This document shows positions 58,601-64,000 of a stretch of 64,000 nucleotides of DNA, one piece after another (position 1 is the first letter of the stretch; the number at the start of each line of letters is the position of its first letter). The stretch is from Escherichia coli 042 (lineage in GTDB: Bacteria; Pseudomonadota; Gammaproteobacteria; Enterobacterales; Enterobacteriaceae). The stretch is taken from assembly GCF_000027125.1 (NCBI RefSeq), contig NC_017626.1. One strand, given 5' to 3'. Made by a program: the position numbers.

Positions 58601-61600
58601 ACGCCCGCTGGCGCGGCTGGCGAACGAAGGAATGCGCGAGTCAGCGGTACGCAACGCTACGCTGGTGGAAGCAGTGCAGTCGATTGAAGATATTAAACTG
58701 CTGCGCGCCGAACAGCGTTTTCAGAATCAGTGGAACCACACCAACGATGTGGCCTCGTCCATCAGCATGAAGCAACGTTTTCTCACCGGGCTACTGCTCA
58801 CCTGGACCCAGGAAGTGCAATCCATCGTCTACGTGGTGGTGCTGTTGGTGGGCTGCTTTATGGTAATGAACGGTGACATGACCACCGGCGCGCTGGTCGG
58901 GACGACGATCCTGGCTTCGCGCACCATCGCGCCGCTGTCGCAGATATCCGGCGTGCTCTCGCGCTGGCAGCAGGCGAAAGTGGCGCGCAACGGACTTGAT
59001 GAACTGATGAAGCGCCCGGTGGATCAGCCGGAACACGGCAAACTGGTGCATAAAGCGGTGCTACACGGCAATTATCAGTTCAGCAACGCTATCTTTTATT
59101 ACGACGAAGAAGAGAAAATTGCCGATGTGGCGATTGGCAAACTCAACATTCAGGCCGGAGAGAAAATCGCCATTCTTGGGCGCAACGGCGCGGGTAAATC
59201 AACGCTACTGCAAATGCTCGCCGGAATGCGTATCGCACAGCAGGGGCAGGTGCTGCTGGATAACATCAGTATCGGGCAGCTTGATCCGGCGGATCTGCGC
59301 CGCGACATGGGGCTGCTGAGCCAGACCGGGCGACTGTTCTTCGGTTCGCTGCGGGAAAACCTCACCATGGGGATGCCGGAAGCCAGCGATGAAGATATCG
59401 AACGCGCGTTAACGCTAAGTGGCGCGCTGCCCTTTGTGCAGAAGCAGAAAAACGGCCTCAACTACATGATTCAGGAAGGGGGATTTGGCCTCTCTGGTGG
59501 TCAGCGGCAAACGCTGCTGCTGGCGCGGCTACTTATCTCTCAACCCAATATCGTGCTGCTCGATGAACCCAGCGCCTCGCTGGATGAAATGGCAGAAGCG
59601 TATTTAATTGAACAACTAAAACAATGGGTTGGGCATCGCACGCTGGTCATCGCTACTCACCGCACGGCGATGCTGCAACTGGTGGACAGGATCATCGTGA
59701 TGGATCAGGGGCGGATTGTGATGGATGGCGCGAAAGAGGCCATTTTGCGTGAACAGGGAGAACCCACGACGCGACGGGTGGTGTTGCAGGAGAAGAATAA
59801 GGGGTCTGCCGCATGAATGGACAACTGCAATACAACCGTGGCCTGACTGAACCCCGCCTGCCGCGTTCGGTGCTGGCGGTACGCGTTACCGCTGTGATGC
59901 TGCTCTGTTTTCTCGGCTGGGCGTGGTACTTCCAGCTTGATGAAGTCACCACCGGCAGCGGCACGGTAGAACCTTCCGGGCGCGAACAGGTGGTGCAGTC
60001 GCTGGAAGGCGGAATTCTGTATCATCTCGACGTCAAGGTTGGCGATATTGTTGAACAGGGCCAGCCGCTGGCGCAGCTTAATCGCACCAAAACGGAATCC
60101 GACGTTCAGGAAGCGATGTCGCGGTTGTATGCGGCGCTGGCAACCTCGGCGCGGCTGCGGGCGGAAGTGAGCAATAAACCGTTGGTCTTCCCTGACGAAC
60201 TGAATAAATTCCCCGAACTTATCGAGTCGGAAACGGCGTTGTACAACACTCGCCGCGACGGGTTGAACAAAGCCACCACCGGGCTGACGCAGGGGATTAG
60301 CCTGGTCAACCGCGAACTGGCGATGACCCAGCCGCTGGTAAAACAGGGGGCGGCGAGCAGCGTTGAAGTGCTGCGCCTGCAACGCCAGGCCAATGAACTG
60401 GAAAACAAACTCAGCGACGTGCGCACGCAATATTACGTTCAGGCGCGCGAAGAGTTAGCGAAAGCCAATGCGGAAGTGGAAACCCAGCGTTCGGTGATCC
60501 GCGGGCGGGAAGATTCTCTCACCCGGCTCAACTTTACCGCGCCGGTACGTGGCATTGTTCAGGACATTGACGTCACCACGGTTGGCGGCGTCATTGCCCC
60601 CGGTGGTAAACTGATGACCATCGTGCCGCTGGATGAGCAACTGCTGATTGAGGCAAAAATCTCCCCGCGCGATGTGGCGTTTATCCACCCGGGGCAAAAA
60701 TCGCTGGTGAAAATAACTGCCTACGATTACTCCATCTACGGCGGCCTGCCGGGAGAAGTGGCGGTGATATCACCAGACACCGTGCAGGATGAAGTGCGGC
60801 GCGATGTTTATTACTATCGGGTGTACATTCGTACTTTCAGCAACCATCTGGAAAATAAACATAAACAGCAGTTTCCGATATTTCCCGGCATGGTGGCGAC
60901 GGTCGATATCCGCACCGGCAAAAAAAGCGTGCTGGATTATCTGTTGAAACCCTTTAATAAAGCACAGGAGGCGTTGCGCGAACGATGAACATTAGCGATG
61001 TAGCAAAAATTACCGGCCTGACCAGCAAAGCCATTCGCTTCTATGAAGAGAAGGGGCTGGTGACGCCGCCGATGCGCAGCGAAAATGGTTATCGAACCTA
61101 CACGCAGCAGCATCTCAACGAACTGACCTTACTGCGCCAGGCGCGCCAGGTGGGCTTTAACCTGGAAGAGAGCGGCGAACTGGTGAATCTGTTTAACGAC
61201 CCACAGCGTCACAGCGCCGATGTAAAACGGCGCACGCTGGAGAAGGTAGCGGAGATCGAACGGCACATTGAGGAGCTGCAATCCATGCGCGACCAGCTAC
61301 TGGCGCTGGCGAATGCCTGCCCTGGTGATGACAGCGCCGACTGCCCGATTATCGAAAATCTCTCCGGCTGCTGTCATCATCGGGCGGGGTGAAAATCAGT
61401 TAATCCCCGTTTGCACCGAAAGAATATGCTGCAAACTTTCTACCATTATGCGCCCCGATTGAAATAAGCCTTCCTGGATTTCGTTGTTAACATTCACAGC
61501 GTGAACCAGGGAGGCTAATAACACCACTTGCAAGAAGGCAAAAATAAACGCACCGATAATCATAATATGCGTCAGGGGGATTTTCCTTTGCTCCTTCATT

Positions 61601-64000
61601 TTAAATAACCCACAAACTGACCTTCCTTCATTAAGGCGACTTTTCCCGTGTGGTGATAAACAATGACGTTATAAAGACCTGACTGATAAACAGTGGCATC
61701 TTTATTGTCTTCATCAATTGCACATAATGAATCATTGAGATAAGCAAAGTTCTTACTGCTCATTCTAAAGGTCATGCCAAATCCTTTATAAATAGATTTT
61801 TTAGCGGCCTGGGCATGTTGTGCGGCTTCTGCATTTTTAAATGCCTGCGCCTCGGATGCACTTAAAATAGCCGTCTGACGCTGTTGTTCTGCGAGATAAC
61901 AGGTGTCATGGCTGACGCCCTGCGCCTGGCAATCTGCGATGCGGGAAGTGGGTGAACTACAGCCAGCCAGTAATATAACCGCCAGCAGGGAAAACGATTT
62001 AATGGAACTATTCATCATTGTTAACCTTAAATAATGTACAAATTAATGAAGAGGTGAAACCCGGCAAGCTTCCTTGCTCTTATTTATATTGAGGATTGGA
62101 ATATTAGAAAGAATATCCCACGCCGACACCCGCGCCGAAATCAGATTGCGTATCCGCAGAGACACCGGCTTTAATCACGGTATGCGTTCCGGCATTAAAA
62201 GATGTTCCGACAGACACCGCAGATTCACCGTTGAAGGTTCCCGCTCCCGCTGACATCATCATAAAGTCACCGGCTTTCACCTGTGGTTGTGAGGCGATAG
62301 CGATGGCTGATGCAGTTCCCGCATTGGCTTCTTTACGGTTGTCCTCAACTTCGTTTTTCAGCGAACTGAAATGGTTATTGAGCGTAGTAATCTGCTGGCT
62401 ATTATCCGCTACTCGTTTTTGCGTGTTGCTTAACTGCTGATGCGTTTGGGTTACGTCTTGTGTCAGGCTGTCAATTTGTTCATGCGTTTGTGTTGAGTCT
62501 TGCGCCAGACGCTGAATTTGTTCCCCGTACTGCACACTATTGATATGCTGTTGCGTTGCCTGGTTAGTCGCCAGAGTATCTATTTTTTGTTTTTGTTCTG
62601 CTGCAGTACGCGCATTCGCATCATTTTGTGCTCTCAGTCCGGCGTTAACCATCTCTTGATAATGTGCGTTGGTCTGGGCATCGCCAAGTGCGGAAACCGT
62701 TTTTTGCGTCGCGTCGATTTGTTTCTGCTGATCGTCCATTTGTTGCTGCTGGGTGTCAGCTTGTGCCTGTTGCGCATTGGCAGCGGCTGTCTGTCTGGCG
62801 TCAATCATGCTCTGATATCGGGCGGCAGTCTGCACATCCCCGGTGGCGGCAACGATTTTCCGGGTTTCGTCGAGTTGTTGCTGTTGGTCAGCAATATCGC
62901 TGCGGTTCTGTTCGATATTATTTTTGTTTTCTGTCACAGCACCGGAAAGTTTGACGCCGTTAATCAGAGCGGTGTTGGCGTTAGCGTTGGCATGGTCAGC
63001 CGTTGACTGGGCATGTGCGACATCGCCTTTTATGTTGGTGACGTCTGACTGCACTGCGGAGACATCATTACGGGTGTCGGCGATGGCGGCTTTATTGGCA
63101 TCAATATCCGTCTGCGCCACCGTGATGGCGTGCTGCGCGTCATCAGCTTTCATTGAAGCCCAGTTGGCGGCATGTTGTGCGTCCTGAATGGCGGTATCCT
63201 GCCCGTTGTCGCGGACGATCTGTTTTTGCTCGTTTGATGCCAACAGTTTCTGCTGGTCAGCAATATCGCTGCGGTTCTGTTCGATATTATTTTTGTTTTC
63301 TGTCACAGCAGAGGAGAGTTTGACGCCGTTCATCAGAGCGGTGTTGGCGTTAGCGTTGGCATGGTCAGCCGTTGACTGGGCATGTGCGACATCGCCTTTT
63401 ATGTTGGTGACGTCTGACTGCACTGCGGAGACATCATTACGGATGTCGGTGATGGCGGCTTTATTGGCATCAATATCCGTCTGCGCCACCGTGATGGCGT
63501 GTTGCGCGTCATCAGCTTTCAGTGAAGCCCAGTTGGCGGCATGTTGTGCGTCCTGAATGGCGGTATCCTGCCCGTTGTCGCGGACGATCTGTTTTTGCTC
63601 GTTTGATGCCAACAGTTTCTGCTGGTCAGCAATATCGCTGCGGTTCTGTTCGATGTTGTTTTTGTTTTCTGTCACAGCACCGGAAAGTTTGACGCCGTTA
63701 ATCAGAGCGGTGTTGGCGTTAGCGTTGGCATGGTCAGCCGTTGACTGGGCATGTGCGACATCGCCTTTTATGTTGGTGACGTCTGACTGCACTGCGGAGA
63801 CATCATTACGGGTATCGGTGATGGCGGCTGTATTGGCATCAATATCCGTCTGCGCCACCGTGATGGCGTGCTGCGCGTCATCAGCTTTCAGTGAAGCCCA
63901 GTTGGCGGCGTGCTGCGCGTCCTGAATGGCGGTATCCTGCCCGTTGTCGCGGTCGGTCTGCGCTTGATTGGTTATCGGGTTCAGCGTATTGGTGGGCTGT

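What the first reader, a model, noticed from the sequence alone, without database searches (positions are those of the whole stretch)
61396..62018. Lipoprotein and 67-aa membrane protein translationally coupled downstream of the autotransporter
A 140-aa lipoprotein (lipobox LAGC, four Cys in mature part) and a 67-aa single-TM protein follow the autotransporter gene on the same strand; the two overlap by ATGA (61596-61599). The small ORF ends 3 bp from the convergent cueR stop. Accessory lipoproteins are known to assist surface display of some trimeric autotransporters (for example the SadB lipoprotein with SadA), so these could be dedicated biogenesis factors. Neither looks like the ybbJ/qmcA genes I recall at this position in K-12.
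Basis: inference. Interest (0 to 1): 0.5.

Follow-up and report, generated by a model that had tools for sequence, protein, structure and literature searches.

The report
Lipoprotein and micro-protein partnering a short autotransporter
Two small, real but uncharacterised E. coli envelope genes (a 140-aa lipoprotein and a 67-aa membrane protein) sit directly after a short trimeric autotransporter in several bacterial genera. They may therefore be a new kind of autotransporter partner, but this has not been tested.

Summary
On the minus strand, a 140-aa lipoprotein gene (61596-62018, lipobox LAGC) and a 67-aa single-TM ORF (61396-61599) overlap by ATGA, follow a YadA-anchor autotransporter (TAA), and end 3 bp from the cueR stop.

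Both are real genes:
- They occur in 1,416 of 5,426 complete E. coli genomes.
- The lipoprotein has dN/dS 0.03-0.04. The small ORF shows 5-6 synonymous and 0 non-synonymous changes.
- The 4-nt overlap is kept across genera.

The lipoprotein belongs to a small Enterobacterales-only family with no Pfam or NCBIfam assignment and no significant structural relative. It is not related to SadB or TpgA.

Its gene lies directly downstream of a YadA-anchor gene in 12 of 18 species that carry a full-length copy. In one Rahnella genome the anchor-plus-lipoprotein unit is duplicated, with unrelated passengers. The small protein travels with the beta-domain protein even where the lipid-anchor module has been replaced.

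Best reading (about 0.4): a periplasmic accessory pair that works with the autotransporter's anchor. This rests on gene linkage only. Six species keep the lipoprotein without an adjacent TAA, and the published deletions gave no phenotype.

The published "transcription factor GmrA" is this autotransporter.

The parts
61596..62018 (-). [not shown]
   Evidence: ORF. Identified as z0638 from the published deletion primers mapped. AF2 model with pLDDT 77. dN/dS 0.03-0.04. Family alignments.
61959..62018 (-). Signal peptide and lipobox (codons 1-20). Cys20 is followed by Ser-Ser.
   Evidence: Read from the sequence. L17, G19 and C20 are at least 90% conserved. The +2 residue is never Asp in the 31 aligned members that have the Cys.
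61599..61796 (-). C-terminal beta domain of the lipoprotein (residues 75-140). This is the part kept next to the TAA even in a non-lipoprotein version.
   Evidence: AF2 strands. Invariant Y111, I119, Y121 and K126. Versions with only the C-terminal domain. L066.
61396..61599 (-). 67-aa bitopic membrane protein gene. Predicted topology is N-terminus in the cytoplasm (basic N-terminal residues), TM at residues 12-34, and an amphipathic periplasmic tail of about 33 aa.
   Evidence: ORF. 5-6 synonymous and 0 non-synonymous changes within E. coli. Homologues with the same 4-nt overlap in L004, L007, L011, L012 and L066. Topology is inferred from the sequence.
61596..61599 (-). ATGA stop/start overlap, with no good Shine-Dalgarno sequence close upstream. 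This is consistent with translational coupling.
   Evidence: junction sequences in four lineages.
62019..62103 (-). 85-nt spacer between the TAA stop and the lipoprotein start. It contains only a 5-bp hairpin with no U-tract, and an AAGG ribosome-binding site 8 nt before the ATG.
   Evidence: fold z-score 0.19. Published RPKM of 96 for the TAA against 20 for z0638, both falling to 0 on HeLa contact.
62104..64000 (-). [not shown]
   Evidence: Full length 705 aa with a signal peptide in L001. Pfam finds only YadA_anchor, E 5e-11. Primer mapping. ECs0548.
60985..61392 (+). cueR, convergent with the small ORF. It marks the island border.

Best explanation

Shown:
- Both genes are real and under purifying selection.
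- They are transcribed and co-regulated with the TAA.
- The lipoprotein gene follows a YadA-anchor gene in many genera.

Inferred:
- The lipoprotein is exported and lipidated at Cys20.
- Having Ser at +2, it is sorted to the periplasmic face of the outer membrane. There its small beta domain contacts the TAA's C-terminal anchor/translocator, or the BAM-bound assembly intermediate. This would stabilise or speed up insertion and retention of the trimer, which is a TpgA-like job done by an unrelated protein.
- The 67-aa protein is made in fixed ratio by termination-reinitiation at the ATGA overlap. It sits in the inner membrane with its amphipathic tail in the periplasm and binds the beta-domain protein, or the nascent TAA, near the Sec exit.

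The partner is more likely the anchor than the passenger, because the anchor and lipoprotein stay constant while passengers are swapped.
For: Linkage:
- Of 18 species in the one-genome-per-species collection with a full-length homologue, 12 have a YadA-anchor ORF directly upstream on the same strand. These are Escherichia, Pseudocitrobacter, Rahnella (6 species), Yersinia aleksiciae, Enterobacter (2 species) and UBA5654.
- Only one non-adjacent anchor hit appeared in about 560 kb of flanking sequence.
- The same order is seen in independent contigs L004, L005, L007/8 and L066/67, and several of these have different flanking genes.

Conserved unit:
- In Rahnella woolbedingensis the order is TAA-lipoprotein-TAA-lipoprotein. 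The lipoproteins are 94% identical and the anchors 95%, but the passengers only 37%.
- In E. coli the passenger ranges from 338 to 705 aa next to a 98-99% conserved lipoprotein.

Island behaviour in E. coli: the pair, the TAA 3' end and z0640 are all-or-none, in 1,416, 1,412 and 1,415 of 5,426 genomes.

The pair stays together: in L066 the lipid-anchor module is replaced by an ordinary signal peptide. Even so, the beta domain and a homologous 64-aa TM protein with the 4-nt overlap still follow the TAA.

Expression: there is no terminator-like structure in the 85-nt spacer. Published RNA-seq and qRT-PCR show that z0638, the TAA and z0640 are all expressed in DMEM and all shut off on HeLa contact.

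Precedent: SadB and TpgA show that some TAAs do have dedicated periplasmic helpers.
Against: - No experiment links these proteins to the TAA.
- Six of 18 species (Phytobacter, Erwinia, Serratia silvae, Raoultella, Atlantibacter, Pantoea) and contigs L006, L009 and L010 carry the lipoprotein with no adjacent TAA. Serratia silvae keeps the z0640-like gene and the lipoprotein but no TAA.
- Two of eight sampled E. coli loci have an internal stop in the TAA but intact small genes.
- The small protein was found in only three lineages.
- Much of the linkage could be shared descent of one module; six of the 12 positive species are Rahnella.
- There is no homology to SadB or TpgA, and no sign of trimerisation.
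- An outer-membrane lipoprotein and a 33-aa inner-membrane tail can hardly meet across the periplasm, so the two parts of the model fit together poorly unless they interact before Lol sorting.
- Delta-OI-29 did not change adherence of O157:H7 to HeLa or Caco-2 cells.
Confidence: 0.4

Rival explanations
1. The beta-domain protein is an independent periplasmic or outer-membrane binding protein or inhibitor of the MliC/PliC kind. It would be a small barrel that blocks a host, phage or rival peptidoglycan hydrolase or another enzyme. It would be merely co-regulated with the TAA as part of a host-interaction island, and the small membrane protein would be its tether or stabiliser.
For: - Like MliC and PliC, the family has both lipoprotein and soluble-periplasmic versions.
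- The only region that hhalign aligns to MliC/PliC is the conserved Y-x-x-G-x-Y...G-K hairpin.
- The family persists without a TAA in six species and next to broken TAAs.
Against: - hhalign probability is 0.4%.
- No MliC Pfam hit in any of 39 members.
- The conserved Ser of the SxSGAxY motif is absent.
- This reading does not explain why the gene keeps its place directly behind a YadA anchor, or why anchor plus lipoprotein duplicate as one unit.
Confidence: 0.2
2. There is no functional connection. The lipoprotein and small ORF are island passengers that were inherited together with the TAA and act elsewhere in the envelope.
For: - OI-29 is inherited as an all-or-none block in E. coli.
- Paralogues stand alone at unrelated loci.
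- A fourth, unrelated 407-aa gene in the same cluster is decaying or deleted.
- No phenotype has been published.
Against: - Gene order and strand are kept at lipoprotein identities of 37-48%, with synonymous sites saturated, across at least six genera.
- The tandem duplication includes the anchor and the lipoprotein.
- The genes are co-regulated.
Confidence: 0.12
3. [not shown]
For: - The divergent z0640-like gene is kept with the module in Escherichia, Pseudocitrobacter, Rahnella, Yersinia and Serratia.
- All three genes switch off together on host-cell contact.
Against: - The small protein has only about 11 cytoplasmic residues, which is too little for a signalling domain.
- Most lineages lack the small protein.
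Confidence: 0.06

Closest known systems
SadB (Salmonella sadBA; Grin et al. 2014, PMC3953254)
   Same: A small enterobacterial lipoprotein encoded next to a TAA. Its general layout is a lipid anchor, then a helix, then a C-terminal beta domain. It is a proposed periplasmic helper.
   Different: - SadB has Asp at +2 and sits in the inner membrane; here the residue is Ser.
- SadB trimerises through nine heptads; here the helix of about 29 aa has no heptad periodicity.
- sadB lies upstream of a long, head-bearing TAA; this gene lies downstream of a headless one.
TpgA (Acinetobacter ataA-tpgA; Ishikawa et al. 2016, as summarised in bioRxiv 10.64898/2026.01.22.700529 and PMC12523085)
   Same: The gene lies directly downstream of the TAA gene. 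It is a periplasmic protein thought to act on the anchor or barrel rather than the passenger. This is the closest match to how the lipoprotein here is proposed to work.
   Different: TpgA has a BamE-like domain and an OmpA-like peptidoglycan-binding domain. Neither is detectable here. TpgA is described as a periplasmic protein and, in the sources read, has no translationally coupled membrane micro-protein.
MliC/PliC/ACP lysozyme-inhibitor barrels
   Different: No Pfam MliC match, hhalign probability 0.4%, key motif residues not conserved, and no Foldseek match.
TraV (F-type conjugation lipoprotein, TIGR02747)
   Same: The N-terminal lipobox is followed by a Cys-x(8-9)-DTC-x3-EQ motif. One public source names a homologue 'TraV'.
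   Different: The score is 19.5 bits against a cut-off of 44.75, and it covers only the N-terminal 60 residues. There are no conjugation genes nearby.

Membership tests
Bacterial lipoprotein (SPase II substrate) | Signal peptide ending in a lipobox [LVI][ASTVI][GAS]C | tested here: met
   The sequence reads ...LLAVILLAGC|SS. L17, G19 and C20 are at least 90% conserved in the family.
SadB/YajI | C-terminal MATH/Ig-like beta-sandwich homologous to YajI (2JWY) and SadB | tested here: not met
   [not shown]
SadB/YajI | Inner-membrane retention (Asp at +2) | tested here: not met
   The +2 residue is Ser here. It is S, T, A, Q, V or H in 31 aligned members and never D. Actual localisation has not been measured.
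SadB/YajI | Long N-terminal trimeric coiled coil (nine heptads) | tested here: not met
   The predicted helix spans residues 37-65 only. There is no excess power at a 3.5-residue period in the family hydrophobicity profile. Oligomeric state could not be modelled.
SadB/YajI | Gene upstream of the TAA in one operon | tested here: not met
   The gene is downstream of the TAA in every linked locus.
SadB/YajI | Improves TAA surface display or integrity | not testable with these tools
   Needs mutants and surface-exposure assays.
TpgA | BamE-like (SmpA/OmlA) domain and OmpA-like peptidoglycan-binding domain | tested here: not met
   No Pfam hit, even at E<=10, for the protein. No such family among the hits for 39 members.
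TpgA | Gene directly downstream of the TAA gene | tested here: met
   The spacer is 85 nt here, and the gap is roughly 45-330 nt in 12 species.
TpgA | Forms a complex with the TAA anchor | not testable with these tools
   There is only indirect support: the anchor and lipoprotein are duplicated together in L016.
MliC/PliC (PF09864) | Profile match and the SxSGAxY / YxxxTKG motifs | tested here: not met
   No Pfam match in 39 members. hhalign probability 0.4%.
MliC/PliC (PF09864) | Eight-stranded beta-barrel fold | tested here: inconclusive
   [not shown]
TraV (TIGR02747) | Score above the curated cut-off | tested here: not met
   19.5 bits against a cut-off of 44.75, over the N-terminal 60 residues only.
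Lpp/OprI alanine-zipper lipoprotein (NF040598) | Score above the curated cut-off | tested here: not met
   15.4 bits against a cut-off of 43.

The most novel reading that the evidence does not exclude
Probability: 0.3. Interest if true: 0.65.

Novelty: new variant of a known kind. Interest (0 to 1): 0.45.

Why it matters
Only two TAA helper proteins (SadB and TpgA) are known. A recent genome-wide screen reported no others (bioRxiv 10.64898/2026.01.22.700529).

A third family tied to the anchor domain would bear on how type Vc secretion is assisted in the periplasm. It could also improve TAA-based surface display.

The genes lie in O-island 29, which is carried by about a quarter of complete E. 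coli genomes, including O157:H7, O55:H7, O145 and many extraintestinal pathogens. The island currently has a single assigned function, and that function (a 'transcription factor') conflicts with the sequence of the protein concerned.

If the rival reading is right, the family would instead be a new periplasmic inhibitor or binder.

Tried and rejected
Searches that found nothing useful:
- PHROGs and PADLOC gave nothing, so a phage or defence origin was set aside.
- A family-profile search of PDB sequences found nothing.
- A literature search for 'XAC1346' found nothing.

Structure comparisons:
- AFDB50 Foldseek returned, at significant E-values, almost only uncharacterised family members.
- PDB Foldseek found nothing significant.

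Other tests:
- A coiled-coil or trimer reading of helix 37-65 was rejected because there is no 3.5-residue periodicity.
- The TAA-lipoprotein spacer has no significant RNA structure, and the consensus scan found no terminator on the coding strand. Whether the lipoprotein has its own promoter could not be decided.
- Rfam gave only two sub-threshold chance hits.

Not attempted: a fused-chain AlphaFold run for the lipoprotein with the small protein, or with the anchor. The tool returns no inter-chain contact or PAE information, so the result could not have been judged.
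Full report
**What is in the window**

The window is E. coli; 100% matches include strain Ecol_316. Four features occupy the region, and the first three are on the minus strand:
- A YadA-anchor autotransporter ORF ends at 62104 and runs off the window end.
- After an 85-nt spacer comes a 140-aa ORF (61596-62018) with a textbook lipobox (LLAGC|SS).
- A 67-aa ORF (61396-61599) has its ATG overlapping the lipoprotein's TGA as ATGA.
- cueR (60985-61392, plus strand) converges on the small ORF, and the two stop codons are 3 bp apart.

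Two things need adding. The fourth 'mature' Cys is the lipidated one. ybbJ/qmcA are not missing: in strain Ecol_316 the order is cueR, small ORF, lipoprotein, TAA, a divergent 120-aa gene, ybbJ, qmcA.

**Both ORFs are genes**

- The pair is present in 1,416 of 5,426 complete E. coli genomes at 94-100% identity. It is annotated as two CDS in every complete hit that was listed.
- Between E. coli lineages the lipoprotein has dN/dS 0.03-0.04. The small ORF has 5-6 synonymous and no non-synonymous changes.
- Homologues of the small protein, with the same 4-nt overlap, follow the lipoprotein homologue in several other places. These are Escherichia whittamii, two kinds of Pseudocitrobacter locus and a further enterobacterial contig.
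- The small protein has basic residues at its N-terminus, one hydrophobic span (residues 12-34) and an amphipathic tail of about 33 residues. From this I infer an N-in, C-out inner-membrane protein.

**The region is already named**

The region is O-island 29 of O157:H7 (2,643 bp; Yang et al. 2018, PMC5826968). I mapped the published deletion primers onto an O157:H7 locus. This shows that z0638 is exactly the lipoprotein CDS, 'gmrA'/z0639 is exactly the YadA-family CDS, and z0640 is the divergent 120-aa gene. The 67-aa ORF is not named in that paper, and the delta-z0638 deletion also removes its start codon.

The published findings are:
- Delta-z0638 has no motility phenotype.
- Delta-OI-29 has no change in HeLa or Caco-2 adherence.
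- All three genes are expressed in DMEM (RPKM 20, 96 and 44) and fall to zero on HeLa contact.

The lipoprotein gene is therefore known but has no function assigned. It is transcribed and co-regulated with the TAA.

**What the lipoprotein is**

It has no Pfam family, either alone or among 39 relatives. NCBIfam gives only sub-threshold matches to its N-terminal 60-70 residues: TraV 19.5 bits against a cut-off of 44.75, and Lpp-type 15.4 bits against 43.

A profile search of 1.84 billion representative proteins finds only 146 relatives. Some have only the N-terminal module, which is the lipobox, the conserved C-x9-C motif and a helix. Others have only the C-terminal domain, behind either a lipobox or an ordinary signal peptide. 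The named relatives are nearly all Enterobacterales; a few N-terminal-only matches come from other Proteobacteria such as Aeromonas and Skermanella.

AlphaFold (pLDDT 77) predicts two helices (residues 23-32 and 37-65) and an eight-strand beta domain (75-139).
- Foldseek against the PDB finds nothing significant.
- hhalign against MliC/PliC gives probability 0.4%.
- SadB and YajI do not appear in either structural list.
- The residue after the lipidated Cys is never Asp in the family. By the +2 rule this predicts outer-membrane sorting.

**Link to the autotransporter**

- Of 18 species with a full-length lipoprotein, 12 have a YadA-anchor ORF directly upstream on the same strand. These are E. 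whittamii, Pseudocitrobacter, an unnamed Enterobacteriaceae MAG, six Rahnella species, Yersinia aleksiciae and two Enterobacter species.
- Three of 29 loci with only partial matches also have one.
- Apart from these, only one other anchor hit occurred in about 560 kb of flanks.
- Independent contigs show the same order.
- Only the Escherichia, Pseudocitrobacter and Serratia loci lie next to qmcA. The others are in different neighbourhoods.

Two observations sharpen the picture.
- In Rahnella woolbedingensis the unit is duplicated (TAA-lipoprotein-TAA-lipoprotein). The two lipoproteins are 94% identical and the two anchors 95%, while the passengers are unrelated at 37%.
- In contig L066 the lipobox/C-x9-C module is replaced by an ordinary signal peptide. 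The beta domain and a homologous 64-aa membrane protein, again overlapping by 4 nt, still follow a 346-aa TAA.

The conserved association is therefore between the anchor end of the TAA, the beta domain and, in one clade, the micro-protein.

**Evidence against a dedicated helper**

- In two of eight E. coli loci inspected (O157:H7 TR01 and APEC E18006) the TAA has an internal stop while both small genes are intact. In EDL933, O55:H7 and O145 the TAA is intact.
- Part of the linkage signal is shared ancestry, since six of the 12 positive species are Rahnella.
- The helix shows no heptad periodicity, so nothing supports a SadB-like trimer.
- An outer-membrane lipoprotein and a 33-residue inner-membrane tail would not easily meet. 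The roles of the two proteins are therefore not yet reconciled.

**Mechanism I commit to (about 0.4)**

I propose a periplasmic accessory pair for the TAA's anchor. The lipoprotein would act at the inner face of the outer membrane on the assembling or assembled 12-strand barrel. This is TpgA-like in position and in gene order, but the protein is unrelated. The micro-protein, made in fixed ratio through the ATGA overlap, would hold or hand over its partner at the inner membrane.

What is shown is the existence of the genes, selection on them, their expression and the conserved adjacency. Localisation, contacts and any effect on the TAA are all inferred.

The rivals are:
- an independent MliC/PliC-like binder or inhibitor that is only co-regulated with the TAA (0.2);
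- island hitch-hikers with no functional link (0.12);

**Comparison with what is known**

A 2026 preprint that surveyed genes around TAAs states that SadB and TpgA are the only described helpers, and it found no new ones. That screen required a YadA head domain. The TAA here has only the anchor domain by Pfam, so this module would have been missed.

**Side finding**

Noticed in passing
[not shown]
   Followed up: partly
[not shown]
   Followed up: partly
window 61393-61400; L060 1182-2405 (-); L062 2182-3405 (-); L003 8192-8871: Other E. coli lineages have a fourth gene (407 aa, cytoplasmic, no family) between the small ORF and cueR. It is complete in 271 genomes and decayed in about 700. In the window it is deleted, and the junction falls in the last codon of the small ORF (GING* becomes GIN*), which leaves that ORF intact.
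   Followed up: partly
window 62500-64000 (-); L001 12805-14934; L003 9705-10721: The TAA passenger is built of near-identical repeats of about 123 aa (369 nt), and their number varies between strains. The protein is 338 aa in E166, EDL933 and O55:H7, 436 aa in O145, and about 705 aa in Ecol_316. PGAP annotates only a 350-aa C-terminal piece in Ecol_316. The TAA 3' end is also more diverged among E. coli (mostly 80-95% identity) than the lipoprotein pair (mostly 95-99%).
   Followed up: partly
window 60985-60988; L003 7691-7787; L061 2996-3093: cueR's ATG overlaps the stop of the HlyD-family type I secretion gene by 4 nt (ATGA). Strains that lack the giant SiiEA-like adhesin/T1SS island still carry a remnant of about 97 bp of that gene's 3' end overlapping the cueR start. 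This suggests the island was lost from those strains rather than gained by the others.
   Followed up: no
L016 4155-8745: Rahnella woolbedingensis has a tandem TAA-lipoprotein-TAA-lipoprotein arrangement. The anchors and lipoproteins are nearly identical, but the passengers are completely different: one is a long PQATPQ-type proline/glutamine repeat.
   Followed up: yes
L025 3069-3278: In Pantoea conspicua a non-homologous 69-aa ORF with a C-terminal TM segment also overlaps the stop of the lipoprotein homologue by 4 nt. This may be an analogous partner or may be chance.
   Followed up: no
L007 5931-6000: In the Pseudocitrobacter-type locus a GC-rich hairpin followed by a T-rich tract (GGCGC...GGCGCC TTAATATTT) lies between the TAA stop and the lipoprotein start. 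It looks like a terminator or attenuator, and E. coli has nothing comparable there.
   Followed up: no
L004 1801-5532: Pseudocitrobacter faecalis carries two different TAAs in tandem ahead of the lipoprotein and small-protein pair, next to a serine recombinase gene and inserted at the wrbA-yccJ-agp site. A family member with only the C-terminal domain occupies the same site in another contig (L065).
   Followed up: no
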